IMG/VR virus record: IMGVR_UViG_3300037245_001069
Span: 1 to 60,408 of that record
Strand: one strand, 5' to 3'
Source of the DNA: a virus
Taxonomy: Duplodnaviria; Caudoviricetes
Length of the DNA stretch: 60,408 nt
A program made the translations under genes and the position numbers. The notes beneath the pieces are model-generated. The model saw nothing but the letters and a program-made list of their open reading frames with translations, had not been told where the DNA came from and did not search any database. Within the stretch, counting starts at the first letter, position 1. Each line of letters opens with the position of its first letter. Shown here piece by piece: positions 1 to 30,689 of this stretch.

Positions 1-80
1 AATGAAGGAAAATCCGATCTACTTCGGGGCTGGACTTGCTATATTCGCAGGATTGACAAAAGAAGTAATCTGGGATAAGA
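1..80. repeat. Terminal direct repeat, left copy (circular assembly overlap)
   Basis: 1-80 is identical to 60329-60408. Confidence 0.97.
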
Positions 81-1979: not shown

Positions 1980-2006
1980 ATTCATACTAATAATAGAAAA
2001 TGCGAA

Positions 2007-2375
2007 CTAACAAGCATATTCGTGATTTACATTTCCAGAACCTTTTACACACATCCTTTTAACATGTTCTTCTTCTTTGAAATTAGTCCATAATGGATCT
2101 TGTTTCTCTCCAGTTAGTTTTTGAAGTTTTCTAATTTTCTTTCTGTTTTCAATTAACTTATAACAAGTGCTACATGTAGCCATGTTTCGAGTTCTATTGA
2201 TTTGAAAGAAGTAAAATGGTTTTCTATGCTCGTCATCCATAGCATCGCAGAACCAAAATGTATGGCCTTGGTCTATTAGAGAATCTTGATATTCACGTAA
2301 GGTTTCAATATGGTCTTTTGTAGCTTTTATAAATATTTTATCCATGATTTTAAAGGTTTCAGATGTTTTTAACAT
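2007..2375 (-). CDS. Hypothetical protein (CxxC)
   Basis: ORF directly downstream of the recombinase. Confidence 0.55.
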   Translation of the reverse strand: MLKTSETFKIMDKIFIKATKDHIETLREYQDSLIDQGHTFWFCDAMDDEHRKPFYFFQINRTRNMATCSTCYKLIENRKKIRKLQKLTGEKQDPLWTNFKEEEHVKRMCVKGSGNVNHEYAC

Positions 2376-2387
2376 GACTTATTCATT

Positions 2388-3218
2388 TTATAATCTTATC
2401 GCCTTCACAGGACTTTCAGTTTCTAATATATCGGAATCAATTATCTTTATGTAGTTGGCAGTTGTATTAATGTTCTTATGCCCTGCTATCTTCTGCACAC
2501 GCCTTAAATCAACACCATTCTTTATAAGCTGAGTCAAACATGAGTGTCTTAAACTGTGGCTTGATATACGCTTATTTATCCCTGCCTTTTTTGCACTCGA
2601 TTTTACGATATTTTGAATACTTGTTACCGAATAATGATTACCAGTCGCCCCCTCAAATAAATACGAACTAACCCTATATACTTTCCAATATTCACGGATC
2701 AAAGACAAAAGAGAATCATCCAACATAACAATCCTGTCAATCTTACCTTTCGAATTACGGATGTTTATTTTTGAATTTTTACTATCAATATCGTTAATCT
2801 TAACATTAATTGCCTCTGAAACTCTTAACGCACAAGCATACATTAACGCAATAACTGTTCGATGTTTTAGGTTTATCGTAACATCCATCATCGTTTGCAT
2901 TTCTTCAGTTGATAAAATGTCCGGCTGTTTTTGTTCTATCTTTGGCCTTGGAAGAATATCGTGATCGAACTTCCTTCCCTTAACTTCTCGGTAGTACGCC
3001 TTGAAAGAGTTGATTATTGACATTTGCGAGGAACTGCTTATGTTTCTTCTTTTACGACTGACAATATACTTTCTTAAATCTGTCTCATCAATATCATCAT
3101 AGTGCTTATTTAGTCGCAATGCAACGACCTTTATAACTCCTATGTAAGAACTGATAGTCTTATCACTTAGATTTTTAAGTAATAGTTTTTCTTCGAATAA
3201 TTCAATCTTTTCGCTCAT
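2388..3218 (-). CDS. Tyrosine recombinase, integron-integrase-like/XerC-like; likely start MSEKIE at 3218
   Basis: Full catalytic set LRVSE, SKGK, HSLRH, GH, ANY; SAM-like N-terminus; TACATTTG box 4 nt upstream of ATG. Confidence 0.93.
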   Translation of the reverse strand: MSEKIELFEEKLLLKNLSDKTISSYIGVIKVVALRLNKHYDDIDETDLRKYIVSRKRRNISSSSQMSIINSFKAYYREVKGRKFDHDILPRPKIEQKQPDILSTEEMQTMMDVTINLKHRTVIALMYACALRVSEAINVKINDIDSKNSKINIRNSKGKIDRIVMLDDSLLSLIREYWKVYRVSSYLFEGATGNHYSVTSIQNIVKSSAKKAGINKRISSHSLRHSCLTQLIKNGVDLRRVQKIAGHKNINTTANYIKIIDSDILETESPVKAIRL

Positions 3219-3254
3219 GAAACAAATGTACGAATATAAATTTATATACACAAC

Positions 3255-3280
3255 ATTGGGCTATACATTAGTTACCGTGC
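3255..3280 (+). other. Putative attI-like site, crossover G^TT at 3271/3272
   Basis: GTT core 53 bp upstream of the recombinase start, pointing away from it; GTTACCGTGC is the exact reverse complement of 3382-3391. Confidence 0.7.
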
Positions 3281-3535
3281 ATTTTGCGCCTTTAAGTATT
3301 GGCACTTTTCTGGATTCGGATTAACTGAGCAAAAACCACCTATGCAATCTTTTTCATACAAGTCGCAAAACGTACCCTTCGGCACGGTAACAAAGTGCAT
3401 AGAAAATAATTTTACTAACTCCCCTACTTTAGGTGAATCAATATCATCATAAACTTTTGTCTCATCCCAATCTTTACGTATTTGCTCAATTGTATTTTCT
3501 TTGAAATACTTTTTTAAATTATCTAATATTGTCAT
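3272..3535 (-). CDS. Cassette 1 hypothetical protein (Cys-rich C-terminus)
   Basis: Starts in the attC-like loop, reads through R'' (FVTVP), stop TAA supplied by the GTTA core. Confidence 0.75.
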   Translation of the reverse strand: MTILDNLKKYFKENTIEQIRKDWDETKVYDDIDSPKVGELVKLFSMHFVTVPKGTFCDLYEKDCIGGFCSVNPNPEKCQYLKAQNAR

Positions 3536-3589
3536 TATTTCTTAGTTTTTAATTCGTAAAATAAAATTCCATGCACAGAACGTTAGCGG

Positions 3590-3949
3590 TTATGTGCCAA
3601 AATCTTCATACCATTCTTTAAAGTCTTCAATATGCATTGTTTGGCAGTTGTCATAAACATCTTCTGCTTTTGGCAAACAACCGCTAACAACGTTTTTATG
3701 TAAGCTGTTTTCGCTCGTAGTCTCAGAACTTCCAACCGCACAAATCGGTGGTTTTACTTTCGTAATCATTATTTTTGCCATAGCACGTCCAATATCTTCA
3801 TAAGTCCATTTGTTTTTCAAATAAACTTCTCTATGTTTTTCGTACTCTTTTATACTTTCCTGTATAATTTCTTGTACGTATAATTTTTGTTTCGCTTTTT
3901 CAAGTTTATCCTTTGCAAACTTGATAATTTCTTTATTTTCTTTGTCCAT
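3590..3949 (-). CDS. Cassette 2 hypothetical protein
   Basis: Reads through R'' as NVVSGC. Confidence 0.75.
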   Translation of the reverse strand: MDKENKEIIKFAKDKLEKAKQKLYVQEIIQESIKEYEKHREVYLKNKWTYEDIGRAMAKIMITKVKPPICAVGSSETTSENSLHKNVVSGCLPKAEDVYDNCQTMHIEDFKEWYEDFGT

Positions 3950-4063
3950 CGCTAGTAAATTTAAAGTTATTATCTCGTATCTAATTTCTCGGTTACCGTA
4001 GGGCGGTCAACACATAGCAGCAACGTTGTAAACAAACTAACTCGCTAAGAAGCTCGTTTATTT

Positions 4064-4231
4064 CTACATGTTGCTATTTAAATTTTCAAGATCTTGGATA
4101 AAGCCCGAAAGAATGAACAGCTGGCCGCGTATCGCCTCTCTGTTTATTGGGTTCGATACTTGTTTCTTCAGATCCTCTAAATGGATTCTTTCTTTCTCGT
4201 ATTTTTCAATCAACTTTTCAATTTTATTCAT
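4064..4231 (-). CDS. Cassette 3 small hypothetical protein (55 aa, MNKIEKLIEKYEKE...)
   Basis: Manually translated; lies wholly in the cassette body between 13-bp inverted repeats. Confidence 0.6.
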   Translation of the reverse strand: MNKIEKLIEKYEKERIHLEDLKKQVSNPINREAIRGQLFILSGFIQDLENLNSNM

Positions 4232-4396
4232 GTTCTATGCTTTAAGTTAAAAATTTAAACAGATTCCAACATTCCCGAAATACCGTTTGTTTACAACGGC
4301 CTCGATAACCTTAACCCTACTAACTACCTGACCGCGAGTTAGTCAGTTGACAACAAACGATAAACGGAACTTGATCGGCAGTGGTTAAGTGCCGGG

Positions 4397-4570
4397 TTAA
4401 CCTTTAGAATTGTTCCCAGCCTTTTCTAAAATAGAAATAGTGTAAGTGACAGCATCGATACTCATAGCGATCGGTAGTGCTTTCATATACTCACTTTCTT
4501 TGTTTAAAGTATCCAAATCTTCTTCTAATTTAATTAACACTTTTCTTAATTCTTCAATTGCTTTTTTCAT
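4397..4570 (-). CDS. Cassette 4 small hypothetical protein (57 aa, MKKAIEELRKVLIK...)
   Basis: Manually translated; lies wholly in the attC-like loop. Confidence 0.6.
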   Translation of the reverse strand: MKKAIEELRKVLIKLEEDLDTLNKESEYMKALPIAMSIDAVTYTISILEKAGNNSKG

Positions 4571-4634
4571 ACCTATTTCTTTTTTATAAAATTCTTTCTC
4601 AATCCAGAAACTCCGTTTACACGACCATTATAGT

Positions 4635-4868
4635 TCAGTTTGCTTTTATATTCTTGCCACATATCGGACAGTAATTGTCATCATTGCATTTCACCCTTTC
4701 ATCATGTATCCAGTCATCGCAAACCGAAACAATAACACAAGGTATATTTAATGCTTTAGGCTTTAGCACTTTAATTAATTCCGTTAATTCGTCCTGCTTT
4801 CTTTTAAGAGCATCTTCATACTTTTTAATCTCTTTCCAAATATCATCAACATCTTTTTGTGTTTTCAT
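4635..4868 (-). CDS. Cassette 5 protein: coiled coil plus C-terminal zinc ribbon (YCPICG)
   Basis: Reads through R'' as NIPCVIVS. Confidence 0.75.
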   Translation of the reverse strand: MKTQKDVDDIWKEIKKYEDALKRKQDELTELIKVLKPKALNIPCVIVSVCDDWIHDERVKCNDDNYCPICGKNIKAN

Positions 4869-4906
4869 TTTGTGGTTTAATAATCGAACTAAACTTAGAC
4901 AGAACG

Positions 4907-5257
4907 TTAGCGGTCATTGCCTAAATTATGGCTATGTTCGCTGCAACTATTATACTGTCTGATAAATTCTGCAAAATCTTTTTCTTTTACCTCTATTGAT
5001 AAGTGTCCCCAATTGTGCATCCAATGTAAGAAGTTCAGTGCATTTTCGGTAGTCAACGAACCGCTAACATTTTGTAAATGCAAACCGCTTTTCTCGTGGG
5101 TAGTTTCGCCATCGCTCAATTTTGCGTATAGATAATGATAAGCCAAACTGTGTTTACCGTATGGCATATACAGTACATCTTTACCATCATCATCACATAT
5201 ACATATTTGGTTATTTTCAACCTGCCTAATTTTAATTTTTATTTCCTTTATTTCCAT
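4907..5257 (-). CDS. Cassette 6 hypothetical protein, likely start MEIKEIK
   Basis: Reads through R'' as QNVSGS; stop TAA in the GTTA core. Confidence 0.7.
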   Translation of the reverse strand: MEIKEIKIKIRQVENNQICICDDDGKDVLYMPYGKHSLAYHYLYAKLSDGETTHEKSGLHLQNVSGSLTTENALNFLHWMHNWGHLSIEVKEKDFAEFIRQYNSCSEHSHNLGNDR

Positions 5258-5332
5258 CGCGCGTAAATTTATAATTTTGTAACTCGTTTGTAGTTCGGTT
5301 ATCGCAGGGCGGTCAACACATAGCCGCAACGT

Positions 5333-5569
5333 TTAATGCAATTCGGCATCTATCTTGTGGTCACATGCAGTGCATATAATGTCAGTTATTAGGTATCCAC
5401 AAATTCCGCACTTGCAAGCCGAAACGCTAACAGAGTCTAAATTGAACTTTAAAACTTGTTCAGCTAATTCATCTACTTTCTGTTGAAGTGCATCAAAATC
5501 TTCAGAGGTACTACCAGTATCGAAATACTTGTTTCCTACTTTCCCATATAATTTTCCGTGATATTCCAT
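5333..5569 (-). CDS. Cassette 7 protein with C-terminal Cys cluster
   Basis: Reads through R'' as DSVSVS; stop adjacent to the core. Confidence 0.7.
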   Translation of the reverse strand: MEYHGKLYGKVGNKYFDTGSTSEDFDALQQKVDELAEQVLKFNLDSVSVSACKCGICGYLITDIICTACDHKIDAELH

Positions 5570-5614
5570 GTGTATATTTTTAATTACGTTTTAAAACTCA
5601 ACTTCGCCGGAACG

Positions 5615-5785
5615 TTATGGCTTACCCTCTCCGTGTCTAACTATCTGTGTTTCGTCAATTTCTATCCAGTAGCAATCATTAAGTTCGTCATCCCATTTGT
5701 TATCAAACCATTCAGCAATAGACCATGCAAAATCTTTCATTACCCAGTAATAACCATTTTCTCTTTCCTTCGCTTTTGTATCCAT
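5615..5785 (-). CDS. Cassette 8 small protein (56 aa, MDTKAKERENGYYWV...)
   Basis: Manually translated; stop TAA in the GTTA core at 5614. Confidence 0.65.
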   Translation of the reverse strand: MDTKAKERENGYYWVMKDFAWSIAEWFDNKWDDELNDCYWIEIDETQIVRHGEGKP

Positions 5786-5865
5786 AATTTATCGGTATTT
5801 AAAAGTTTCCACTAAATTTCAAGGGCGGTCAACACATAGCATGAACGTTCAGTTCAATTACCTCA

Positions 5866-6537
5866 CTACCTAAAGCTAGTTCCTTTTAATTCTATAAAGT
5901 TAAACATCTCAGCCATCCGATCTTTTATTATCGGCTCGATATTCAAATCTTCAGGAGAGAAGTTTGACGTAACGTGTGTTAATTTACCTCTCTGAAATAA
6001 TTCATACCGAATCATAAACAGGGAATGAATAATAGAATCTGCCTTGGTGCCATAAATTTTCTCATCCATTTCCTTTCCAAATTCGTCGATGCATAGTCCA
6101 TACGGATCTCCATTTATATTATATCCATACTTCATCACATTCCCATCTTGTTTGTAACTTTCAATTATTTGCTCCAGGGAAACACATAAATAGCCATTCG
6201 AATTAAACGGGAAATAAGTTACAAGGAATTTTCTTATTGAAGCCATTAGAGCCGTTTTACCGCATCCAAACGTTCCGTATAGATAAATACCCTTGTTTAA
6301 GTCCAACCCTTCATTGCCTGTAAAGTGACGTAGCATAGCAGTTAATTTAGGTGCATTCTCTTTCCTTACAATAAACTCTTTGCCGATATATTCAGAAGCA
6401 ACCTTTATAAATTGTTTTTTTATCACTACTTCATTTTCGTCAAAATCAATTAACTTACTAAATCGCGTCGAGTGTTTTAAATCTTGTGTTATCGAATCCC
6501 TCGTCTTTCCTTCTAGTATCTTGCTGATGTGATCCAT
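5866..6537 (-). CDS. DnaC/IstB-like P-loop ATPase (helicase loader)
   Basis: Walker A GTFGCGKT, Walker B LCIDEFG, THVTSN; paired with the initiator. Confidence 0.85.
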   Translation of the reverse strand: MDHISKILEGKTRDSITQDLKHSTRFSKLIDFDENEVVIKKQFIKVASEYIGKEFIVRKENAPKLTAMLRHFTGNEGLDLNKGIYLYGTFGCGKTALMASIRKFLVTYFPFNSNGYLCVSLEQIIESYKQDGNVMKYGYNINGDPYGLCIDEFGKEMDEKIYGTKADSIIHSLFMIRYELFQRGKLTHVTSNFSPEDLNIEPIIKDRMAEMFNFIELKGTSFR

Positions 6538-7210
6538 TTTCTCTTGGTTTATAAACTTTATTCATGTCAATCGCCTTTGTTAAGGTGGATTTCCAATCGA
6601 TTTCTTTTGATTTTGATTTTTTCTTATGTTTCCAGCCAGCTTCGGTTCCCCAAAAATTAGTAATTGCTTTTTCTACTGAAAGGAGTATATCGAGATTTGG
6701 GTTGAATTTTTCCTGAGTGGAGATCCATTCTTGATTTTTATTTAATTCTAAATGAACTTTAGATAATTCTTTCAAATATATTCCGAAACTACCCCTCCAT
6801 GTATTATCCTTATCTTTATCCTTATCTTTATCCTTATCTTTATAGCTAGAGCTTTGCTGTGGCATTGCTTTAGCATTGCTAGACTTTTGCTTGCCACCCT
6901 TAGAACCTGCTTTCTGTCTACGTTTGCGCTGTTCTGAAAGTACGTCAAATTGCTCATTTAGAAATTCTATTGATAAAAAGTCAGTGTTTTCATCGTGCTT
7001 AATTATTTCCAAATTAATCAGTGATTCAATCAAAGCTATGGCATCGTTAAAGCGTTTCTTTAGCAATGCTAGAGTAATGCTACAATCCTTAAACCAATAG
7101 TATGCACATATATCCGAAAATACTCCCTTTGTTTTATAGTCCTCTAAACTTATGTCTCCATTAAGCCATTCTGAGGCTGTAAATCTGAAATATGGTAATT
7201 CCTTTGCCAT
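6458..7210 (-). CDS. Phage replication initiator-like protein
   Basis: LPYFRF..SEWL N-terminus, RRQKAGSKGG and DKDKDK linker typical of phage initiators; upstream of the ATPase. Confidence 0.75.
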   Translation of the reverse strand: MAKELPYFRFTASEWLNGDISLEDYKTKGVFSDICAYYWFKDCSITLALLKKRFNDAIALIESLINLEIIKHDENTDFLSIEFLNEQFDVLSEQRKRRQKAGSKGGKQKSSNAKAMPQQSSSYKDKDKDKDKDKDNTWRGSFGIYLKELSKVHLELNKNQEWISTQEKFNPNLDILLSVEKAITNFWGTEAGWKHKKKSKSKEIDWKSTLTKAIDMNKVYKPRENGSHQQDTRRKDEGFDNTRFKTLDAI

Positions 7211-7241
7211 TGTTAAATTTTAACATTATTAATCAAAAAAA

Positions 7242-7403
7242 TTACAGATGAATTAACTCTGCACCTTTCGCTACTACTACAGCCAATTCTCCACGATTAA
7301 TCATTCGTTGGACTTGAACGGGATTAGTTGCATTATCCTTAGCATACTGGCTCTTTGAAATCAGCTTCTTTGGGTCAATATCTTTAGTTTTTATCTTCTT
7401 CAT
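7242..7403 (-). CDS. Small HTH-like DNA-binding protein (53 aa)
   Basis: Manual translation: LISKSQYAK...VQRMINRGEL. Confidence 0.55.
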   Translation of the reverse strand: MKKIKTKDIDPKKLISKSQYAKDNATNPVQVQRMINRGELAVVVAKGAELIHL

Positions 7404-7734
7404 AGTTAATATTTAACGTTTTAAAAGTAAAGAAAACCGGACTTCTCCGGTAATTCTTTTGCAATGTATTGAATTTTATTTAACCTACCAAATTAGAAAA
7501 TCCAGGATCTCTAAATTGTGACCTTTTATACTTATTATTCCAATCAATTATATTCATCTTAAAATCACAGAGACCGTGAAAGCAGATTACATCTGATTTT
7601 CCTTTGTAAATATTCTTGGAAAGGAATAAGTGCCCGTAAATTTTATCTTTACATTTTGGGCAAATCTTATTTATTTTATCGTGTAATTTTGCCATATCGT
7701 TTAATTAAAGTGTTATTTTCTAGGCTCCATAAAT

Positions 7735-8010
7735 TCAATCATAGTAAAGATCGTGATTAATACATATCAGGTGTATATCAAGTATCGCCCTGAAAGTCCA
7801 AGAATTGCCACTATCGTCGCTATTGAATTGACGAATGTATTTAGTGCCTTTAAGTATCCTATACTTTGCCTGAGTCGCTTTCACTACTGCTCTATACTCT
7901 GTAAATGTTAATCCAATTTCGAGAACGGGTGCATTGAATAAGAACTCGCAAGCATCACAGTTATAATCCTTTCGTGCTTTCGGTTTTGATTCGTGTATTA
8001 CTGATATCAT
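7735..8010 (-). CDS. Hypothetical phage protein (KARKDYNCDAC)
   Basis: ORF in the early operon. Confidence 0.65.
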   Translation of the reverse strand: MISVIHESKPKARKDYNCDACEFLFNAPVLEIGLTFTEYRAVVKATQAKYRILKGTKYIRQFNSDDSGNSWTFRAILDIHLICINHDLYYD

Positions 8011-8012
8011 AA

Positions 8013-8486
8013 TTAAAGAGTATTAATATCTACCCAACAACCTTCTGGAATGTCTATGGCGAAGTGCCATGAAATCAATTTTAATACAACTTTGTATGGG
8101 AGGTTTGAAAAATCTCCAGCCTCTAAACTGATCGTTGCATTTATCCATGCCTTTGCGCCTTCAACATTTCTAAAGCTTTCAGGTTCCTCGTCATAGAGCC
8201 ATTTGGATAGTTTATCTATCGGAATAAATTCTTTCCCATCGTTATGTCCGGGAACCTTTATTGGTTTGGTTAAGTCGGATAATGGGTGACATATAAATTT
8301 ACACTCATTACCGAGCCTCTTTCCAGCCGATCCTCCCTCGTAAGTCACATAGAGTTCACCTACGAGATAATAGAATCCATTTGATTTTGATCGCATAATG
8401 CCCACATAATCGACTTTGTGGTTCAGTATTTGAATTTCTAGACTGCCGGATAATTGGCAGATGATGTTTTGATTAATTGTTTTCAT
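8013..8486 (-). CDS. Hypothetical phage protein
   Basis: ORF in the early operon, HPLSDLTKPI motif. Confidence 0.65.
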   Translation of the reverse strand: MKTINQNIICQLSGSLEIQILNHKVDYVGIMRSKSNGFYYLVGELYVTYEGGSAGKRLGNECKFICHPLSDLTKPIKVPGHNDGKEFIPIDKLSKWLYDEEPESFRNVEGAKAWINATISLEAGDFSNLPYKVVLKLISWHFAIDIPEGCWVDINTL

Positions 8487-8489
8487 CGA

Positions 8490-8879
8490 TCAGTTTATTT
8501 TATGATTATTTCTACCATTATACTCAACCAAAATATGAGGGTAATGCTCCTTTAGAAAGTCTTTCAAACTCTGTTTCTTTACAACTTCCTTTTTATTTCC
8601 GGTAACAATAAATACAGAATTATTATTCCCCTCTTCCATTTTCTCGTTTACGATCATTATCTCACCGTATTCAAGCAATTCACTTGTCCTTTTTTGAACT
8701 TGATTATAGGTAAGCCCCGATTCAACTGAAGCCTCCCTGATCGTTTTGGCAAAGAAATAAGAGTCCTTAACTATTTCTCGGTGGGTTTTCCTTCTCTCTT
8801 TGTTTTCAGGATCTAGATAAGCCTTAGTGCTAGCTGTAGTCATAGTTTTAAAATTTGTTTGTTCAAATATAAAACACAA
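8490..8879 (-). CDS. Winged-helix-like DNA-binding protein
   Basis: TIREAS..SGLTYNQVQKRTSEL. Confidence 0.55.
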   Translation of the reverse strand: MCFIFEQTNFKTMTTASTKAYLDPENKERRKTHREIVKDSYFFAKTIREASVESGLTYNQVQKRTSELLEYGEIMIVNEKMEEGNNNSVFIVTGNKKEVVKKQSLKDFLKEHYPHILVEYNGRNNHKIN

Positions 8880-9030
8880 AGGGTTAAGAATGAATATAAA
8901 TTAAAAGAACAATTTCAACTGCCTACCATTTAATTCATTCTGAGAACGGAACTTTCCATCTCCACATTTACAACAAACCGGTTCCTGATAATTCAAGTCC
9001 CAGTTCGTCATTAGTTCTACGCTGGTTAAT

Positions 9031-9387
9031 TTACTTTTGCATTTGTGGCATTTCATATTCTTCAACATTTATAAAAACAACATCTTCATTTTTAGTTTTA
9101 CGAGATGATACTTTTATACTTTCCACTATATCCCACTTATCATCTTCAAATATAATATCCTCAATCATTTTAACCATTGCAATACAATTGGAAGCATCTA
9201 ACGGGCGTTTCTTAAAGTAAAAGGCATATTCTACTTGATATGTTTTATCCTTACTGAAAACGTGCTTAAACTTACTTTTGACGATCAACTTATAAGTGTC
9301 CTTTATTGCCTTTCTTTTAGTCCAATGTTTTCCGGCATACCATTCATTAAGACTTATTTTGGGTAAATTTTTTAATGTAATCTGCAT
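9031..9387 (-). CDS. RusA-like Holliday junction resolvase
   Basis: ISLN, RPLDASN..K...D, EDD motifs. Confidence 0.75.
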   Translation of the reverse strand: MQITLKNLPKISLNEWYAGKHWTKRKAIKDTYKLIVKSKFKHVFSKDKTYQVEYAFYFKKRPLDASNCIAMVKMIEDIIFEDDKWDIVESIKVSSRKTKNEDVVFINVEEYEMPQMQK

Positions 9388-9631
9388 GAATTTCTTTTAA
9401 ATATTCTAAGTATTTTGTTTTGTCTCCGTAAAGTTCGTGTTCTTCCCTGGTCAATGCCATTAGATTCTCAATCCTATCTGCATTTTTAGAGCCACCCATT
9501 CCGCGAGCTTCAATATGATGAATATCTACGGCTGGGTCCCCTGATATCTCACTTACGCAATCGTGCCATCCACTTTGAGGATCGTAATCAACGCCAAAGG
9601 AATCGAAATATAATTTAGTGTGTTTCTGCAC
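9347..9631 (-). CDS. Small HNH-like nuclease
   Basis: DIHHI...RGMGGS...NLMALTREEH. Confidence 0.7.
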   Translation of the reverse strand: MQKHTKLYFDSFGVDYDPQSGWHDCVSEISGDPAVDIHHIEARGMGGSKNADRIENLMALTREEHELYGDKTKYLEYLKEIHADYIKKFTQNKS

Positions 9632-9651
9632 AGGTTCTTCTTTTAGGTGGT

Positions 9652-10116
9652 TTACGTTCCATCGGTCTTGTACTTTTTGTAACTGAATACTTGTGGCTTA
9701 ATGTCGTTTCTTCTAAGTATGGATGAAATCAAATTAATCTCCCCTTGATGGTTACAGTTTTGTTTTTCAGGTTCTTTTATAACTGATATTTTGCCTTTCT
9801 CATTCACGTAAAGCAATCCCCACCTTAAAGGTAGTTCAGACTCTTTAATGATTCCTTCATTGCAAATATAGCTCCGAAAGCCACCAAGCCCATGATCTGA
9901 ATTCTTTCGCCAATACTTCTTTTTGTCGGAAAGAAAATCAGATCGCGTTGCCTTTGCTTCTATAAGCTGGGTTGATCCGCTGTTCCATCCAAAAGCATCA
10001 GGACATTCACCAACTCTTTCAAGTTCGCAAACAGCATACGTGCATTTATTGAAAGGAACAATACCATTGCTTCTTAAATACCTTGCTGCCTTTATGCATA
10101 ATTCACGATGATTCAT
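9652..10116 (-). CDS. PD-(D/E)XK nuclease-like protein (MmcB-like)
   Basis: ECPDAFG...IEAKATRSDFLSD, ELP..WGL. Confidence 0.7.
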   Translation of the reverse strand: MNHRELCIKAARYLRSNGIVPFNKCTYAVCELERVGECPDAFGWNSGSTQLIEAKATRSDFLSDKKKYWRKNSDHGLGGFRSYICNEGIIKESELPLRWGLLYVNEKGKISVIKEPEKQNCNHQGEINLISSILRRNDIKPQVFSYKKYKTDGT

Positions 10117-10503
10117 AATCTATCTGTTACTATTTTAATATCATCATAAACCGGTTCCAACTTCTCTGCTTTCGGCTTAATACAGTATCCAACCAGTAAG
10201 TTGTAACCTGCCGGAAATTTCCAGTTAAACTTGCTGTCTTTAAAAATACTGAAGCCTGATTCGTTTGGTTTACTCATGGTGTATAAGGTTTGAATTTCTC
10301 ATTAGCAGTAAAAGAACAGTTAGAATAGTGAACTGAATCCATGTAGTGAATGTGAGTGGCGATTGAATCCTGAGTCTGTTTAAGCCCTTGCATAATTTCC
10401 ACTTGCTGCTTGTGATTAAATTCATTGGATATAAAAGTAATCCCTAATCCTATGACGATAAATAAAAGTACAATCGTAATATCGTTTCTTGTAGCGTAAT
10501 CTT

Positions 10504-10977
10504 TCATGATTCGTCTTTTAATTCTGGATAAATTTTATCAGCATCTAAAATCGTAAACAATACAGGATTTATTTTATTCGCGTATCTCAAGACAGGCTCA
10601 TAAGCATTTCTGTATTCTGAGTTAAATTCATGAAGTATGTTTTTAAGCTCATTCTTGCTACTTATTACCGATGGATGCCCTTTCATAAAGAAGTGTTCCG
10701 TTTCTTCTTGTGTGTACATTAAAGCGTAGTGCATGATAACCATACACACAAACCTTGGGTACGCATATATCCTTTTCCGGCTCTTTCTGTTTGCCATAAA
10801 TTCATCATAATCAACATTTCCGCATATACATGCTTCCTTAATTATGAAGTCTCTGTTCGATCTAATAGAATTTCTTTTAAATTCCATCTTTCTGATAGTG
10901 TCCACTGTTTTTTGCCTCTCTTTCATTTCTATATATGTCTGATGTAGTAATTTGAAAAATGTTATTAGTTTTTTCAT
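10504..10977 (-). CDS. DnaA C-terminal-like HTH protein
   Basis: SRKR.YAYPRF.CM...T..E...F...HPSVI pattern. Confidence 0.5.
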   Translation of the reverse strand: MKKLITFFKLLHQTYIEMKERQKTVDTIRKMEFKRNSIRSNRDFIIKEACICGNVDYDEFMANRKSRKRIYAYPRFVCMVIMHYALMYTQEETEHFFMKGHPSVISSKNELKNILHEFNSEYRNAYEPVLRYANKINPVLFTILDADKIYPELKDES

Positions 10978-10981
10978 AGTT

Positions 10982-11422
10982 TTAATCTAAATGTTTATTA
11001 ACAGACTGAAGCCCATTTAGCTCAGCCTTTATAGCTTCAATATTCGTTAAATTTGACTTGTATAAAGCCACTGCTGCCTCCATTTCGAACATCTCCTTAT
11101 AGCAATATCCTTCTGCCATTTTCCGAGCAGCAGAAGCAACCACATTACCAACTTCAATTCCGTCAATTTTATCAATCAATCCGTTCTTTAGTTTGATTTC
11201 AGTAATAGTTACTTTTTTAGCAAATTCTGAAATTGCTGTTGCTTTCTGAAGTGCAGATTGAAAAATAACAGAACGGGCAAGTCTCAACTCCTTTATTTTG
11301 TGGAGTATTTCTTCTTTGGTGTTGCCGTAATCGAAATTATCAACGGCAGCAGGAATTACAGGACGATCTTTTTCGCCTTGTAACTCCTTTGCTCTTACTT
11401 CTGCCCAAAATTCATCAGACAT
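10982..11422 (-). CDS. Hypothetical helical protein
   Basis: ORF translationally coupled to recT. Confidence 0.65.
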   Translation of the reverse strand: MSDEFWAEVRAKELQGEKDRPVIPAAVDNFDYGNTKEEILHKIKELRLARSVIFQSALQKATAISEFAKKVTITEIKLKNGLIDKIDGIEVGNVVASAARKMAEGYCYKEMFEMEAAVALYKSNLTNIEAIKAELNGLQSVNKHLD

Positions 11423-12552
11423 TATTTAACCTCCTCCGCTTCTTGAATATGATCATCTGCGGGACCATCATCAAGTAAATCTGATTTATGTTCTTGTTTT
11501 TTGGTCCAATCTTCAAATACTTCGTTGTCGTATTTTGCCTCGATTTCTAACGCCTTGATTTGATCGTCAGATAGTCCTGTTTTTGGCATGAATTTGAACG
11601 CCCAATTATAAACTGTTTTAAGAGCCATTTCGGTATAGTCTGAATCCCAAGGACAACCCTTGCCAGCCTTTACAGCTTCGGAACGGGCTTTGATTTCTTC
11701 AATTCTTTCTTTGGTCATCGTATCAAAAGATATGGCACCGTTGGATAATTTACAAACCCAATATCCACCCATTAATTCACCCCTGTCTCCCCATGATTGA
11801 GGGATATGTTTAATGCTTGGATTTGTGCCTTTATGAACCTCGAAAACATCCTTCTCGTACACCAATGTAGCATAAGAATCTTTAACATGCCCTGTACGGT
11901 TTACGATTTCCCTCTTACCCATATAAGAAGATGTAAAATAAATCTTCCCTTTTCTTGGAACTAAATACCCAAGTTTTAATTCAGGGTTCAAGGTAAGTCC
12001 AGTCAGTGCAATATTTTTAACTGCTTCCACAAGATATTCGGGATAATTTCTAGCACAGCTAATTAAATAATCCTTAGCCATCAAGTGCTGAACAGCAAAA
12101 TTAATCTCTTTGGCGAATTGCTGCTCTGTTCCTCCTGCGGCTAAGAATGCTTTTTTTGGAGAAACTAAAACTGTTCCAAGTCCGGCATCAATAAGTTTAC
12201 GAGGCAATGCAGGTGCAGCGATGGGCACAGGAACTTGTACTTTAGGCGCGGTAGTATCTTCCTTTTTAACAACAGGCTCTTTTTTAACCTGAACCTTAGC
12301 CTTCTCTTTTGGCGGCTCATTCTTTTTGACTGCCGGAGTTTTATCTTCCGAGCCAAATTTAATGTAAGCCTTTTCGAATCCTACAGGATGTGCCTTTTCG
12401 TGCGATCTCATGGTTGCTACGAATAAAGCATCATTCATTTTGTCAAGTTCAGGCATTGTGAATTTTACCCCTTTCGGACAGCCTACGCATTCGAATCCAT
12501 CACCATTGAATTTGAATCCAAGGTCTTCTAGTAATTGTTCTTTTTTAATCAT
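11422..12552 (-). CDS. recT: RecT-family single-strand annealing protein
   Basis: GLTLNP...YLVP, SYMG, VYEKD.F, PW.SDY.EMALKT. Confidence 0.88.
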   Translation of the reverse strand: MIKKEQLLEDLGFKFNGDGFECVGCPKGVKFTMPELDKMNDALFVATMRSHEKAHPVGFEKAYIKFGSEDKTPAVKKNEPPKEKAKVQVKKEPVVKKEDTTAPKVQVPVPIAAPALPRKLIDAGLGTVLVSPKKAFLAAGGTEQQFAKEINFAVQHLMAKDYLISCARNYPEYLVEAVKNIALTGLTLNPELKLGYLVPRKGKIYFTSSYMGKREIVNRTGHVKDSYATLVYEKDVFEVHKGTNPSIKHIPQSWGDRGELMGGYWVCKLSNGAISFDTMTKERIEEIKARSEAVKAGKGCPWDSDYTEMALKTVYNWAFKFMPKTGLSDDQIKALEIEAKYDNEVFEDWTKKQEHKSDLLDDGPADDHIQEAEEVK

Positions 12553-12553
12553 T

Positions 12554-13558: not shown

Positions 13559-13854
13559 GATCTTATAGATTCTTCAATAATTTTAACATCTACGAATGAT
13601 ATATATTTTGGATCACCATCTTCATGCTGAATTTCAGCTTTATGTATGTCCATATTCTGAGATTCAAGATCGCGTCCAGTATCAAAGGATTTATAAACAT
13701 TTCCTTCAATATGGACAAAGCAATCTTCAAACTCAAAATCAAAACTAGAATAGCCATACCAATGAGTATCGTAGGTTGTATCAAACCCTTTCATCTCCAT
13801 TTTTTCGATGGCTGATTCTAATTCTGCTATTAAGTTATTTAGGCTGTAATTCAT
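13555..13854 (-). CDS. Hypothetical protein
   Basis: Coupled ORF in the operon. Confidence 0.6.
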   Translation of the reverse strand: MNYSLNNLIAELESAIEKMEMKGFDTTYDTHWYGYSSFDFEFEDCFVHIEGNVYKSFDTGRDLESQNMDIHKAEIQHEDGDPKYISFVDVKIIEESIRS

Positions 13855-15416: not shown

Positions 15417-15426
15417 TGTAATTTAT

Positions 15427-15957: not shown

Positions 15958-16308
15958 GATATTTATTTGGTTTAAAATGTATTCAGTTTTTAGTATATAA
16001 TTATAAGTCCGTCTATAATATCAAATCTATTGCCAAATGGTAGTTTAATAACAGTTCTGTCATTGGCTGCCAATATGTGTATTTCTGTTTTCGGTTTCGT
16101 ATTTATCAATATCTCGTTTGGCGTTTCTTCGTTTGCCAAATCTTTTAGTTGGTGTAAGTTTATTTGTCTTGCCATTTTATTTAATTTTGTGGTTTTAAAG
16201 AAGAACAGGGAGGAAAACCAAACCAATAAACACACATGAAAACAAACCCCAAAAAACCTCCCTGTTCAATATTTTATAAAGTTATCAACAATCAAATATA
16301 GTATTTAC

Positions 16309-16773: not shown

Positions 16774-16939
16774 TAGTTTAATTTAAAGCCCCAAAATTCA
16801 TTCACCCAGCTATCTCGTATTTCCTGAGCGTGAGCATCACTCAAAGCGTAGGTTTCCTTCAGTATTTTATCACCTCGTTTTTTAGTAACAAGGATGCCTT
16901 TTTTATCGGTCGTTATTTCGAATAGTGTTAGCATCGTTT

Positions 16940-18602: not shown

Positions 18603-18678
18603 ATCAATTAATTTAGTAACGTTTTGCACCCACGAAGCCGGGGCCATTGACGGCACCGGCGGAGGGCTGGAGATGTTT

Positions 18679-29415: not shown

Positions 29416-29543
29416 TTTCAGAATAACGGTCGTTGTATGTATTTTTGAACAACAGATAGGTTTAATTATTAACCCATCGTTCCGATAACAGACTATATTC
29501 TAAGTAACTAAGGTTCAATTATATATACAACTTGTTAGCGGTT
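29416..29543 (-). repeat. attC-like site, minus orientation
   Basis: Arms GTTGTATGTATTTTTGAAC / GTTCAATTATATATACAAC between AAC and GTT cores. Confidence 0.75.
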
Positions 29544-29625
29544 CGGTTTATTTCAGCGTAATGGTTTCTTTTTCATTGTGTTGGAATGAATAATTATCTA
29601 ATGTCACCAAGAGAGACTTCCTTTA

Positions 29626-30063
29626 TTAAAAATGGTAGCCTGAAAATACAGCGAATACTATCAGAGAAAGAATTGATAAAGCTAGAAGAACAAAAAAAGC
29701 GTTTAATAGCTTGCCGTAAATCGGTTTTCGGGCGGTTTTTCTTAAAGTGGTGCCGGTGGAATTATCCTTATTCTGTATATATCTTTCATAATCACACCAC
29801 TGATGATACAGAGTGTCTGTTTCGCTATATAAGAAGGCTAACCCACAAAGGATACAAGATCCGCAGAATAATACAGACGATATGAAAGCGATGTACTCAC
29901 ATATATCATTAGCACTGTCAGACTTTAGGCTGATTATCAATCCTAAGATTATTGCGATAACTGATACGCAATTCTTGACCCATCGCAATTCTGCTTCTGT
30001 GCTTTTATCTATTGCATCTGCTAATCTCATTAAGTCAGCGTTGCTTGGTTTATTTTCTTCCAT
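29626..30063 (-). CDS. Cassette-borne membrane protein (3 TM)
   Basis: Antisense to the surrounding phage genes; TM segments. Confidence 0.7.
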   Translation of the reverse strand: MEENKPSNADLMRLADAIDKSTEAELRWVKNCVSVIAIILGLIISLKSDSANDICEYIAFISSVLFCGSCILCGLAFLYSETDTLYHQWCDYERYIQNKDNSTGTTLRKTARKPIYGKLLNAFFVLLALSILSLIVFAVFSGYHF

Positions 30064-30137
30064 AATTTAAAATATTAGTATGAAACGGTTTTGGCTATAC
30101 TTAAAAACAGATTTCCTGCTCGATGCAAGAGCATTTA

Positions 30138-30587
30138 TTATTGGAATGATGACTTATCTACTACTTGAAGCATTATTAAAATATCTTTCCAGTTAGCAAG
30201 GATGAATCCTACTAAAATCCCTAAAATCCCAACTATAAAATCCCTCTTTAGTTTTCTATTTTGAAGATTTAAATTCACCCTTGTTAATTTCGCGTTTTCA
30301 ACATTTAATTCGTCAAATTTCTTCTTTAGATCATCTTGTTCTGATAGATATTCCTGATGCTTTGAATAAGAGCCATGTTTGGACAAAGTAGACAATACAC
30401 TACTACTTAATTTCCACCATAACCCGTCAGGTTCAATCCATCCTTCATCTTCCAAAATAGCCAACAACTTCTCCCATCCAACAACTTCTTTCTTATCTAA
30501 CCATCCTTTTAATGTATTAGACTTTGGATATGATTCATGTAATCTCTTGATGCAGTAATCTGCATATTTTAATTCGTATTCATTCAT
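30138..30587 (-). CDS. Cassette-borne protein: wHTH-like, coiled coil, C-terminal TM
   Basis: Antisense to the surrounding phage genes. Confidence 0.7.
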   Translation of the reverse strand: MNEYELKYADYCIKRLHESYPKSNTLKGWLDKKEVVGWEKLLAILEDEGWIEPDGLWWKLSSSVLSTLSKHGSYSKHQEYLSEQDDLKKKFDELNVENAKLTRVNLNLQNRKLKRDFIVGILGILVGFILANWKDILIMLQVVDKSSFQ

Positions 30588-30624
30588 AATATCTAATTAC
30601 TCTCATTCCCTCCCTCTTAAACTG

Positions 30625-30689
30625 ACCGCTAACGAGTGATATGGTTAGTGATTTCTTGTCATTAACTATTATCACTTATTATTCTGAAA
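30625..30689 (-). repeat. Short attC-like site (probable recipient site)
   Basis: Arms AGTGATATGGTTAGTGA / TCATTAACTATTATCACT with one extra base. Confidence 0.72.

What the first reader, a model, noticed from the sequence alone, without database searches (positions are those of the whole stretch)
3272..5785. Inside-out cassettes: genes run antisense, start inside the attC loop, translate through the site and stop on the GTTA core
Seen: all eight ORFs are on the minus strand, opposite to att polarity and co-directional with the early operon and the recombinase. In units 1, 2, 5, 6, 7 and probably 8 the ATG lies in a loop of about 130-300 bp between the attC-like arms. The left arm is translated as a recurring peptide: LFSMHFVTVP, LHKNVVSGC, LNIPCVIVS, LHLQNVSGS, FNLDSVSVS. 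In units 1, 6 and 8 the TAA is the complement of the TTA of G^TTA (3272, 4907, 5615), and in units 2, 5 and 7 the stop lies within 10 bp of the core. Established: classical attC sites are about 57-141 bp, non-coding and downstream of a sense gene driven by Pc. Inference: the recombination site and coding sequence have merged, giving compact units expressed by read-through from phage early promoters. Crossover at R'' instead of R' would swap N- and C-terminal halves between proteins; several C-terminal halves are small Cys/zinc modules.
Basis: partly seen in the sequence, partly recalled or inferred. Interest (0 to 1): 0.88.

Follow-up and report, generated by a model that had tools for sequence, protein, structure and literature searches.

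The report
Phage cassette array swapping protein halves
Beside a recombinase gene, this phage carries a row of small genes bounded by integron-like recombination sites that lie inside the coding sequence, and database relatives show that the front and back halves of these proteins were exchanged exactly at those sites.

Summary
The sequence facts are real. Eight minus-strand ORFs sit next to a tyrosine recombinase. Unit borders carry AAC|GTT, and unit-specific inverted GTTA…TAAC boxes enclose the ORF 3' parts. Three stops lie in the TAAC core, and five ORFs start upstream of an internal GTTA read as Val.

Phage contigs with related recombinases (31-70% identity) have the same layout directly upstream of the recombinase, on the gene-sense strand. 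Their bodies, bounded by GTTA…TAAC, are separated by 65-125-nt hairpins with strong covariation: 92.5% of cells paired against 71% in shuffles, and 11 of 16 pairs with compensatory changes. A model built on them gave 45 of 46 non-window hits co-oriented with the recombinase. So "antisense, inside-out" comes from reading a near-palindrome on the wrong strand.

Homologues of units 1, 2 and 6 keep the N-half (75-94% identity) and switch to unrelated C-halves at the junction Val. Two proteins carry unit 2's C-half on other N-halves.

The recombinase is XerA/IntI-like but lacks the IntI insertion. The window's main array has no canonical hairpin. Cargo in relatives includes orphan methylases and the Thoeris inhibitor Tad6.

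Best reading: an integron-like phage platform, a new variant, that shuffles protein modules in frame. No recombination was observed directly.

The parts
2388..3218 (-). Tyrosine recombinase, 276 aa, XerA/IntI-like, without the IntI-specific insertion
   Evidence: Pfam PF00589 1.4e-39 and PF13495 2.3e-12. NCBIfam NF040815 scores 194 bits (cut-off 220) and TIGR02249 152 bits (cut-off 265), the latter in two stretches. In the PDB, XerA 4a8e matches at 4.8e-32. IntI4 2a3v aligns query 194-270 to chain 240-316. R132, H221, R224, H247 and Y256 are invariant in 4 relatives.
3219..3270 (-). Conserved region between the last TAAC core and the recombinase ATG. It is promoter-like and a candidate primary attachment site.
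   Evidence: It aligns across 10 loci with 61% mean column identity (A4). blastn from the window hits L029, L030, L033 and L034 at 76-83%. Function was not tested.
3271..3581 (-). Unit 1. The body 3271-3391 is bounded by GTTACCGTGC / GCACGGTAAC and holds the C-half. The N-half and leader lie at 3392-3581. ORF 3272-3535.
   Evidence: Arm pairing has P=0.001. P0015 keeps 46 of the first 49 residues and then diverges.
3582..4024 (-). Unit 2. The body 3582-3688 has 21-nt arms, 90% complementary, 65 nt apart. The N-half and 39-nt conserved block lie at 3689-4024. ORF 3590-3949, junction Val at residue 88.
   Evidence: I4. The N-half and C-half are found separately in 6 database proteins.
4025..4297 (-). 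Unit 3. A whole small gene (ORF 4064-4231) enclosed by a perfect 13-14-nt inverted pair.
   Evidence: (I23).
4298..4631 (-). Short hairpin spacer (4298-4348) and unit 4 (ORF 4397-4570) with degenerate end boxes
   Evidence: (I7, I10) and my reading. This is the weakest part of the parse.
4632..4905 (-). Unit 5. ORF 4635-4868, with the internal GTTATT at 4736 read in frame as Val. Cys-rich C-half.
   Evidence: Arm pairing is not above background (P=0.78). No homologue except itself.
4906..5330 (-). Unit 6. Body 4906-5068 (GTTAGCGGT / ACCGCTAAC). N-half and conserved block at 5069-5330. ORF 4907-5259, junction Val at residue 64.
   Evidence: I21. P0002 is 75% identical up to the junction and then unrelated.
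5331..5613 (-). Unit 7. ORF 5333-5569, internal GTTAGCG at 5431. Arms 5439-5455 and 5588-5604 flank the ATG.
   Evidence: I24; P=0.04. Residues 1-39 match an ORF in the last cassette of L038 at 49% identity, E 2e-12, and the C-parts differ.
5614..5846 (-). Unit 8. ORF 5615-5785, stop in the TAAC core, conserved block 5823-5840 upstream.
   Evidence: No internal junction was found.
29420..30633 (+). Outlying unit. It holds the only canonical site hairpin of the window (29420-29541) followed by a body 29534-30633 bounded by GTTAGCGGT / ACCGCTAAC. The body holds two minus-strand ORFs.
   Evidence: Covariance model hit of 21.5 bits, E 8e-4..

Best explanation
The region is the variable cassette array of a phage-borne, integron-like recombination platform.

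The platform has four parts. (a) A XerA/IntI-related tyrosine recombinase. (b) A conserved about 50-nt region just upstream of its start codon. (c) A row of 'bodies', each bounded by its own inverted boxes GTTAnnnn…nnnnTAAC. (d) Between the bodies, imperfect hairpin 'sites' on the gene-sense strand, of the form TAAC|G - 5' arm - A/T-rich loop - 3' arm - GTTA.

Many sites carry a start codon in the loop. Translation then runs through the 3' arm, which is the source of the recurring L-H-x-x-x peptide. It reads the GTT of the core as Val and continues into the body, which supplies only the C-terminal module. It often stops on the TAA of the closing TAAC.

Exchange of bodies at the GTTA core therefore fuses any N-module to any C-module in frame. 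In the window the N-modules have grown to 48-87 residues and the hairpin arms have largely decayed, but the boxes and junctions remain.

Shown: the anatomy, the covariation of the hairpin in relatives, its adjacency to and co-orientation with the recombinase, the complete turnover of array content between close relatives, and homology breakpoints at the junction Val.

Inferred: that the neighbouring recombinase catalyses the exchange, that the crossover is at G|TTA, whether the substrate is folded single-stranded or duplex DNA, and that the small proteins act in host takeover or anti-defence.
For: Architecture in relatives. Unit-specific GTTA…TAAC pairs and intervening hairpins lie directly upstream of the recombinase in L007/L032, L010, L011, L020, L034 and L038.

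Hairpin. In 27 sites TAAC-G and GTT are invariant. There are 16 consensus pairs, 11 with compensatory changes. 92.5% of cells pair against 71.1% in shuffles (0 of 500). The covariation score is 0.541 against 0.164 (0 of 500). Slid controls give 33-48% paired.

Model R1. It gave 47 hits at E<=0.01 in 33 sources: 27 training sequences and 20 new. Of the 19 new non-window hits, 18 are on the recombinase strand and upstream of the recombinase gene. It gave 0 hits in 149 kb around distant bacterial recombinases.

Turnover. L010 and L038 have collinear flanks and recombinase genes 88% identical. Their 4.2-kb and 3.3-kb arrays share only one 40-nt arm. Homology stops at the first site and resumes about 10 nt before the last TAAC.

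Module exchange. For unit 2, P0004, P0005 and P0007 match residues 1-89, 4-90 and 4-91 only, while P0010 and P0011 match 86-118 and 88-117 only; the junction Val is residue 88. For unit 6, P0002 is 75% identical through the junction and then unrelated. For unit 1, P0015 matches 46 of 49 residues and then diverges. C-modules that begin VSNNEV[AT]VC and then differ follow three different N-modules.

Reading frame. In 16 of 36 bodies the ORF enters from the site. GTT is in frame 0 in 13, frame 2 in 3 and frame 1 in 0. The stop lies within 13 nt of TAAC in 27 of 36 bodies (two rows corrected by eye).

Cargo in relatives. Dam, C5, MT-A70 and Eco57I-like (the last weak: E 5.5e-4, 20.5 bits, below the 25.3 cut-off) methylases, and Tad6 at 4.6e-41.

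Precedent. Phage-borne attC sites, some flanking methylase genes, are recombined by IntI1 (Qi et al. 2023, PMC9892861, section 3.4 read).
Against: No recombination event was observed directly.

The window's main array has no canonical hairpin. In 4 of the 6 sites tested the arms pair no better than background.

The recombinase fails both curated cut-offs and lacks the IntI insertion. It lies downstream of the array and co-oriented with it, unlike intI.

In helix 2 of the hairpin alignment, G-U pairs (21 cells) outnumber A-C pairs (5 cells) by my count. This favours folding of the sense strand and would fit an RNA structure as well.

L036 (64% recombinase identity) and L022 have no array.

Frame 0 is preferred but not universal, and frame 1 is excluded anyway by TAG or TAA in most cores.

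Exchange at a conserved 25-40-nt junction could also come from homologous recombination.
Confidence: 0.6

Rival explanations
1. The hairpins are regulatory RNA or promoter-terminator modules. They would combine a promoter, a translation start presented in a loop and a processing or terminator stem, like the PeSL elements of T4-type phages. Gene shuffling would then be a by-product of homologous or illegitimate recombination between these repeats, not of the tyrosine recombinase.
For: G-U pairs outnumber A-C pairs 21 to 5 in the covarying helix, which favours the transcribed strand (my count). Loops are A/T-rich, with a conserved TTTAAATTTA-like motif just before the ATG in relatives and upstream of window ORFs 2, 3 and 6. 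PeSLs are a published precedent for mobile regulatory cassettes around small early ORFs (PMC2839356 and PMC4122927; search listing and abstract starts only). The window's own arms are mostly decayed, yet the module swaps involve its N-modules.
Against: It does not explain why each body is bounded by its own 10-21-nt inverted boxes. It does not explain why TAAC-G and GTT are invariant in 27 of 27 sites, or why arrays abut and co-orient with one recombinase clade. It does not explain why homology between close relatives ends exactly at the first and last core. The cores match the integron core G|TTRRRY quoted in PMC9892861.
Confidence: 0.22
2. This is a shufflon-like or inverton system. The inverted GTTA…TAAC boxes would be inversion sites, and the recombinase would flip each body to give alternative C-termini.
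For: The boxes are inverted repeats that enclose ORF 3' parts at distances of 65-145 nt. The recombinase has weak similarity to tyrosine-type DNA invertases (NF007371 1.7e-16, far below the cut-off). The Rci shufflon swaps C-terminal segments of PilV (recalled, not from a call).
Against: Inverting bodies 2 and 6 in silico gives stops after about 24 and 18 codons. Only body 1 stays open. In relatives most bodies hold whole genes with their own start (20 of 36). The swapped homologues carry unrelated C-modules, not reverse complements. No inverted variant was seen among relatives.
Confidence: 0.07
3. This is ordinary small early genes with repeated promoters or operators. The recombinase would be only the lysogeny integrase, and the resemblance to att sites would be coincidence.
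For: AACGTT and the conserved blocks lie 30-80 nt upstream of six start codons. The 8 ORFs match no family.
Against: Against it stand the repeat statistics, the covariation, the junction-exact module swaps and the array turnover. No close relative of the recombinase was found in one genome each of 185,579 species (best 29% identity), which is unexpected for a lysogeny integrase, though not conclusive.
Confidence: 0.05

Closest known systems
Integrons (IntI, attI, attC gene-cassette arrays), including sedentary chromosomal integrons
   Same: A variable array of units sits beside a tyrosine recombinase. The sites are imperfect hairpins closed by …TAAC / GTTA… boxes, which match RYYYAAC / G|TTRRRY. 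The start of each unit is complementary to the inverse core at its own end, as expected for circular cassettes. Stop codons fall in or next to the inverse core. Array content is completely different between close relatives. Unrelated cargo carries the same site type.
   Different: The recombinase lacks the IntI insertion and fails the curated cut-offs. It lies downstream of the array and co-oriented with it. Box complementarity extends to 10-21 nt. Many sites contain a start codon and leader, so the site is translated and cassettes can be mere C-terminal modules. Wobble-pair asymmetry points to the sense strand rather than the bottom strand. The host is a virus.
Phage-borne attC clusters (CALINs) of Qi et al. 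2023 (PMC9892861), e.g. Polaribacter phage P12002L
   Same: attC-like sites lie in phage genomes and often flank orphan DNA methyltransferase genes. Five of six such sites tested were recombined by IntI1 (section 3.4 read).
   Different: Those clusters were described as lacking an integrase, and the word Xer does not occur in the text. Model R1 finds no hit in P12002L. Only one GTTAGGCAC…GTGCCTAAC pair, around gp35, was seen there. No in-frame sites or module swapping were reported in the parts I read. The supplementary tables could not be seen.
PeSL mobile regulatory cassettes of T4-type phages (PMC2839356, PMC4122927)
   Same: Repeated intergenic stem-loop elements flank small orphan early ORFs in hypervariable regions and are associated with modular shuffling.
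   Different: PeSLs are promoter-terminator motifs thought to act by homologous recombination, with no dedicated recombinase, no TAAC/GTTA cores and no in-frame junctions. Only the listing and abstract starts were seen; the rest is recalled.
R64-type shufflon (Rci tyrosine recombinase)
   Same: A tyrosine recombinase acts at short repeats inside coding sequence, so that one N-terminal part receives alternative C-terminal segments (recalled).
   Different: The shufflon works by inversion among segments of one gene. Here the evidence is for replacement of bodies among many genes, and inverted bodies are mostly not open.

Membership tests
Integron (sensu IntI + attI + attC) | Integron integrase with the IntI-specific additional domain | tested here: not met
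   TIGR02249 scores 152.3 bits against a cut-off of 265 and matches in two stretches (best stretch: residues 6-180 to profile positions 3-179 of 315). NF011946 scores 88 against 435. In PDB 2a3v, query 194-270 aligns to chain 240-316, so about 45 residues of IntI have no counterpart. That this segment is the IntI-specific domain is recalled.
Integron (sensu IntI + attI + attC) | attC sites: imperfect hairpins with an inverse core …AAC and a core GTT…, plus paired L boxes | tested here: inconclusive
   In relatives the form is met: 27 sites of 65-125 nt, invariant TAAC-G and GTT, and 16 covarying pairs. In the window only 29420-29541 fits. The main array has the boxes but no canonical hairpin. 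The published attC model (IntegronFinder / HattCI) was not available, so formal attC membership is untested.
Integron (sensu IntI + attI + attC) | intI divergent from the array, with attI and the Pc promoter at the array head; cassettes promoterless | tested here: not met
   The recombinase is co-oriented with the array and downstream of it in the window and in 9 relatives. A conserved region follows the last unit, but its function is unknown. Site loops carry their own start codons.
Integron (sensu IntI + attI + attC) | Cassettes excise as circles and insert by site-specific recombination of the folded bottom strand | not testable with these tools
   Only Logan contigs of one run were available. 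Comparative breakpoints fit exchange at the cores but do not show the mechanism.
CALIN (cluster of attC sites lacking an integron integrase) | Two or more attC sites close together without IntI | tested here: inconclusive
   Relatives have 3-9 site hairpins within a few kb and no IntI. The sites were not scored with the attC model that defines CALINs.
Xer recombinases acting at dif-like duplex sites (pdif modules, IMEX) | XerC/D/A-type recombinase and 28-bp sites with two inverted arms around a 6-8-bp centre | tested here: inconclusive
   The best family is XerA-type NF040815, at 194 bits against a cut-off of 220; the best structure is XerA 4a8e. The junctions …TAAC|GTT… are locally palindromic, but no 11-6-11 site was defined or tested.
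PeSL regulatory cassettes | Early promoter consensus plus terminator stem-loop flanking small ORFs | not tested
   No promoter or terminator scan was run on the sites. The hosts are probably not sigma-70-consensus organisms (a TAnnTTTG-like motif lies before the recombinase ATG; that consensus is recalled).
Shufflon / inverton | Both orientations of a segment occur and both give open reading frames | tested here: not met
   In-silico inversion leaves 1 of 3 bodies open. No inverted variants were seen among relatives or homologues.

The most novel reading that the evidence does not exclude
A clade of phages of (probably) Bacteroidota owns an IntI-independent analogue of the integron. Its recombination sites are built into reading frames. 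The site supplies the promoter-proximal leader or N-module, the cassette supplies the C-module, and the core GTT is a Val codon. A Xer-like recombinase can then generate combinatorial fusions of small early or anti-defence proteins. The same platform also stockpiles whole anti-defence genes such as methylases and Tad6. That would be programmed protein-domain shuffling by site-specific recombination in a virus.
Probability: 0.4. Interest if true: 0.92.

Novelty: new variant of a known kind. Interest (0 to 1): 0.82.

Why it matters
Integrons are the textbook bacterial device for stockpiling and reshuffling genes, and recent work casts them as banks of anti-phage defence. This looks like the mirror image in phages: arrays beside a simpler Xer-like recombinase, with cargo in relatives that includes orphan methylases and a Thoeris inhibitor.

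It also adds something integrons are not known to do systematically. The recombination core is placed in frame, so that N- and C-terminal protein modules are exchanged. The database already holds the same N-half on three or four different C-halves, and the reverse.

If the recombinase is shown to act on these sites, three things follow. It would give a tractable system for how attC-type recombination works without the IntI insertion. It would explain part of the ORFan turnover in phage early regions. It would also offer a natural in-frame domain-swapping tool.

Tried and rejected
Inversion model. Reverse-complementing bodies 1, 2 and 6 gave no convincing alternative C-termini.

Known RNA families. 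There was no match in window 2000-7000. Two hits far below their gathering scores (25.9 of 95; 18.6 of 50 bits) turned up in L020 3900-8100, and I set them aside.

Protein families. Pfam and PHROGs gave nothing for the 8 ORFs apart from one PHROG of unknown function at E 0.006 for unit 8. The ESM Atlas gave no usable lead for unit 2 (best feature score 0.76).

Close relatives of the window. blastn against 50,697 phage records found no match. The 18-mer is not in IMG/VR. The DnaC-like neighbour has no relative in IMG/VR.

DNA context of the swapped homologues. P0002, P0004 and P0005 were not found in IMG/VR.

Spurious hits. P0008 and P0009 are Thr/Ser-rich repeat proteins whose score is a sum of weak stretches, so I dropped them. 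P0012 (39% identity over 3-66) and P0013 were not used.

Model R1 on the main array. With default filters there was no hit. With filters off the best E was 0.22, so nothing there is counted as a site.

P12002L. There was no R1 hit. Most GTTA…TAAC pairs with one mismatch there are A/T-rich chance matches, and I used them only as a background rate.

Reads. One run (X1, Logan contigs, possibly the source sample) was laid at 85% likeness. Depth rises from about 12 to 49-109 over 3970-4136, 4304-4804 and 5306-5639. Single contigs break at 4024 and 5616, which are the AAC|GTT borders. The listed joints have sides under 35 nt at low likeness and may come from other phages or repeats, so I do not count them as recombination events.

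Literature. Four searches found Qi et al. 2023 and the PeSL papers. They found no description of Xer-like recombinase-linked arrays or in-frame sites in phages. The library lacks most subscription journals, and the supplementary tables of PMC9892861 were closed and may list related phages.

Rows left out of counts. L009/L017 was left out because its recombinase is truncated and sits next to a portal gene. L012, L029, L030, L035 and L037 have less than 300 nt upstream. In one search I corrected unit 5 (GTT at 4736, frame 0) and removed L038 5649 from the 'enters from site' class, because the real ORF there is 5690-5932.

Full report
WHAT THE WINDOW IS. The 60,408-nt window is a complete virus record with an 80-nt direct terminal repeat. 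GC content is about 35%. It encodes a terminase, portal, HK97-type capsid, RecT and a DNA methylase. It has no close relative among 50,697 deposited phages.

Genes from about 2000 to 22000 lie on the minus strand. The finding lies between a DnaC-like loader (5866-6537) and a tyrosine recombinase (2388-3218), both on the minus strand.

CHECK OF THE OBSERVATION. The eight minus-strand ORFs are there. None matches a Pfam family, and only unit 8 matches a PHROG, weakly.

The repeats are real and far beyond chance:
- An 18-mer occurs three times exactly, at 4001, 5307 and 5823, against 0.01 expected.
- GTTAGCGGT occurs six times exactly against 0.23 expected.
- AACGTT occurs 7 times in 3579-5849 out of 18 in the whole window, Poisson P 7e-6.
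- The array holds 4 perfect 10-nt GTT..AAC inverted pairs against 0 in the other 53.8 kb. None of 300 shuffles reaches 4.

The strongest pairs enclose the 3' parts of ORFs:
- 3582-3602 with 3668-3688: 21 nt, 90% complementary, 65 nt apart.
- 4899-4914 with 5060-5075.
- 3271-3280 with 3382-3391, which has a core of its own.
- 4024-4037 with 4285-4298: a perfect pair that encloses the whole of ORF 3.

The stops of units 1, 6 and 8 are the TAA of the TAAC core on the coding strand. Those of units 2, 5 and 7 lie within 10 nt of it. In units 1, 2, 5, 6 and 7 the ATG lies 127-261 nt upstream of an internal GTTA. The GTT of that core is read as Val, and the peptide just before it recurs.

The weak point is the pairing of the arms that should close the 'loop' around the ATG. 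Against 1,500 background windows, only S1 (P=0.001) and S7 (P=0.04) stand out. S6, S3, S2 and S5 do not.

RELATIVES SHOW WHAT THE STRUCTURE IS. Searching with the recombinase and then with an alignment of four recombinases brought in phage and metagenome contigs at 31-73% identity.

With genes and recombinase read left to right, L007/L032, L010, L011, L020, L034 and L038 all show the same thing directly upstream of the recombinase. There is a row of 'bodies', each bounded by its own inverted boxes GTTAnnnn…nnnnTAAC. The bodies are separated by intergenic hairpins of 65-125 nt, which cluster near 80 and 118 nt. These begin right after TAAC and end right before GTTA.

An alignment of 27 such sites has TAAC-G and GTT invariant. 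It has a consensus of 16 pairs, 11 of which show compensatory double changes. 92.5% of cells are paired against 71.1% in shuffles (0 of 500). The covariation score is 0.541 against 0.164 (0 of 500). Sliding the partner by 1-3 columns drops pairing to 33-48%.

A covariance model built on these sites (R1) found 47 hits at E<=0.01 in 33 sources. Of these, 27 are the training sequences and 20 are new. Of the 46 non-window hits, 45 are on the strand of the recombinase. All 45 lie upstream of the recombinase gene.

I then counted the loci with at least 1 kb upstream and a recombinase match of at least 31% over at least 160 residues. Nine of these eleven have sites: L010, L011, L013, L019, L020, L021, L032, L034 and L038. 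L036 and L022 have none. L036 carries NAMPT-like genes there instead. The model found nothing in 149 kb around distant bacterial recombinases.

After the last TAAC, a stretch of about 50 nt is conserved across ten loci up to the recombinase ATG. It contains a TTG…TAnnTTTG-like motif. I recall that motif as the Bacteroidota promoter consensus. Whether the stretch also serves as an attachment site is unknown.

POLARITY. The sites are near-palindromes, so either strand shows '…AAC … GTT…'. The model is asymmetric enough to choose a strand, and in relatives that strand is the gene-sense strand.

The window's conserved blocks, read on the minus strand, resemble the 5' arm of sites in L010 and L007. 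It simply reads in the direction of the genes. 'Antisense, inside-out' is not supported.

SITES ARE TRANSLATED: A FAMILY TRAIT. I curated 36 bodies from 7 arrays. In 16 of them the ORF starts in the site loop and runs through the 3' arm and the core. GTT is in frame 0 in 13, in frame 2 in 3, and never in frame 1. Frame 1 is closed by TAG or TAA in most cores.

The leader is 14-31 residues in relatives and 48-87 in the window. The stop is the TAA of TAAC in 9 of 36 bodies and lies within 13 nt of it in 27 of 36 (two rows corrected by eye, as stated under Tried and rejected).

The recurring L-H/N-x-x-x-V-S peptide is simply the translation of the conserved 3' arm plus the core.

THE DECISIVE TEST: DOES HOMOLOGY SWITCH AT THE JUNCTION? 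It does.

Unit 2 has its junction Val at residue 88. A search of all 1.84 billion representatives gave three groups of hits:
- P0004 (85% identity), P0005 and P0007 match residues 1-89, 4-90 and 4-91 and then carry three unrelated C-parts.
- P0006 matches the N-part only.
- P0010 and P0011 match residues 86-118 and 88-117 behind two unrelated N-parts.

Unit 6 has its junction Val at residue 64. P0002 is 75% identical through the junction and unrelated afterwards.

Unit 1 has its junction Val at residue 49. P0015 matches 46 of the first 49 residues and then diverges.

For unit 7, residues 1-39 match the N-part of an ORF in the last cassette of L038 at 49% identity, E 2e-12, with different C-parts. 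Unit 5 has no homologue.

The C-parts of P0002, P0005 and P0015 all begin VSNNEV[AT]VC and then differ. They follow three different N-modules.

Units 1, 5 and 7, and also P0002, P0005 and P0015, have C-parts with four or more Cys. They look like small zinc modules, judged by sequence pattern only.

ARRAY TURNOVER AT THE DNA LEVEL. L010 and L038 have recombinase genes 88% identical and collinear flanks at 70-88% identity. Between the first site and the last TAAC, however, the 4.2-kb and 3.3-kb arrays share only one 40-nt site arm.

The body of window unit 6 and a body in L034 share 16 nt at the GTTA end. At the TAAC end they share 19 nt, and weaker similarity continues into the next site. Their interiors are unrelated, at 163 and 477 nt. 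This is the same site type carrying different cargo.

CARGO. Bodies in relatives encode Dam, C5, MT-A70 and Eco57I-like (the last a weak, below-cut-off match) methylases, DUF7715 and Tad6, a Thoeris inhibitor (4.6e-41). The window's units remain of unknown function.

THE RECOMBINASE. It has the Phage_integrase and SAM_4 domains. R, H-x-x-R, H and Y are invariant. Its best family is XerA-type, at 194 bits against a cut-off of 220. The integron-integrase model scores 152 bits against 265 and matches in two stretches.

In the structure of IntI4 (2a3v), query 194-270 aligns to chain 240-316, so about 45 IntI residues are missing. I recall that segment as the IntI-specific domain. The protein is therefore not an integron integrase.

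No relative closer than 29% identity exists in one genome each of 185,579 species. That is unexpected if its only role were lysogeny.

THE WINDOW IS A DERIVED MEMBER. Model R1 finds one canonical site in the window, at 29420-29541 on the plus strand (E 8e-4). It lies directly before a 1.1-kb body bounded by GTTAGCGGT / ACCGCTAAC, 26 kb from the recombinase.

In the main array the model finds nothing. The boxes, borders, 5' blocks and junction motif persist there. The loops have grown into N-modules of 48-87 residues, and most arms no longer pair.

READS. One run, a marine sediment metagenome that may be the source sample, holds the region as Logan contigs. Baseline depth is about 12. Depth rises to 49-109 over 3970-4136, 4304-4804 and 5306-5639, so other genomes in the sample share those modules. 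Single contigs break at 4024 and 5616, which are the AAC|GTT borders. I treat this as a weak hint only.

HOW IT MOST LIKELY WORKS. Bodies are exchanged by site-specific recombination at the GTTA core, and perhaps also at TAAC|G. The neighbouring recombinase most likely does this. The complementarity between the two ends of each body is what a circular, folded intermediate would need.

Because the core is in frame, exchange fuses N-modules encoded in the sites to C-modules encoded in the bodies. Whole-gene bodies use the same platform.

The recombinase's role, the crossover point and the nature of the substrate are all inferred, not shown. G-U pairs outnumber A-C pairs 21 to 5 in the covarying helix (my count). 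The folding strand is therefore the sense strand, as DNA or as RNA. That keeps an RNA-level role (the PeSL-like rival) alive, possibly in addition to recombination.

WHAT IS KNOWN. Qi et al. 2023 (PMC9892861; abstract, section 3.4 and found passages read) reported attC sites and clusters in 21 phages, often with methylase cargo, and showed that IntI1 recombines five of six tested.

They describe the clusters in virulent phages as lacking an integrase. In the parts I read they do not mention Xer-type recombinases or translated sites. Their supplementary tables were closed.

PeSL elements (PMC2839356, PMC4122927; listing only) and the Rci shufflon (recalled) are functional analogies. Searches found no description of this architecture.

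VERDICT. The 'antisense' reading is wrong. The module-swap inference is right. I file it as a new variant of the integron kind, not as a member, because the IntI and intI/attI/Pc features are not met.

Noticed in passing
window 29420-30633: This is a solitary canonical site hairpin on the plus strand, followed by a 1.1-kb body bounded by GTTAGCGGT / ACCGCTAAC. The body holds two minus-strand ORFs (30138-30587 and 29626-30063) in a plus-strand gene neighbourhood, 26 kb from the recombinase and opposite to it in orientation. It is the one place where cargo really runs antisense to the site.
   Followed up: partly
window 3989-4027, 5295-5333, 5811-5849: A block of up to 39 nt, repeated three times, includes the exact 18-mer. 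It is bounded on one side by AAC|GTT. In the first two copies it is bounded on the other side by a GGTAAC/GATAAC-like core. It might be a remnant mini-unit or half-site. It has no complementary partner in the window.
   Followed up: partly
L034 148-624 compared with window 4906-5068: The two share the same end boxes: 16 nt at the GTTA end and 19 nt at the TAAC end, with weaker similarity continuing into the next site. Their interiors are unrelated, at 477 and 163 nt. One is a whole gene and the other a C-terminal module.
   Followed up: yes
L020 6229-6864: A cassette in a related array encodes a Tad6-family Thoeris inhibitor (Pfam PF25188, 4.6e-41). Neighbouring cassettes encode MT-A70 and Eco57I-like methylases.
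   Followed up: partly
L036 131-2821: This contig has a 64%-identical recombinase and the conserved pre-recombinase region but no cassette array. Instead it has three upstream ORFs (289, 132 and 479 aa) that I took by eye for NAD-salvage genes (PRPP-synthetase-like and NAMPT-like). No family search was run on them.
   Followed up: no
window 51757-52392: Four to five tandem copies of a 117-120-nt unit (61-71% identical) lie inside the 505-aa ORF 51416-52933, in the tail-gene region.
   Followed up: no
window 6804-6847: A 12-nt unit repeated in tandem gives a (KD)n run in the 250-aa ORF 6458-7210, just upstream of the DnaC-like loader.
   Followed up: no
window 34580-36376: The large terminase is 598 aa, but phage relatives align only to residues about 3-407. 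The C-terminal third has a weak T7-type RNaseH-like match below its cut-off.
   Followed up: no
window 4304-4804 and 5306-5639 (run X1): In the one run that holds the window, summed contig depth over these modules is 5-9 times the phage's baseline of about 12. Other genomes in that sample therefore share these units or sites.
   Followed up: partly
window 1-80 and 60329-60408: There is an identical 80-nt direct terminal repeat, so the record is a complete, circularly closed or terminally redundant genome.
   Followed up: yes
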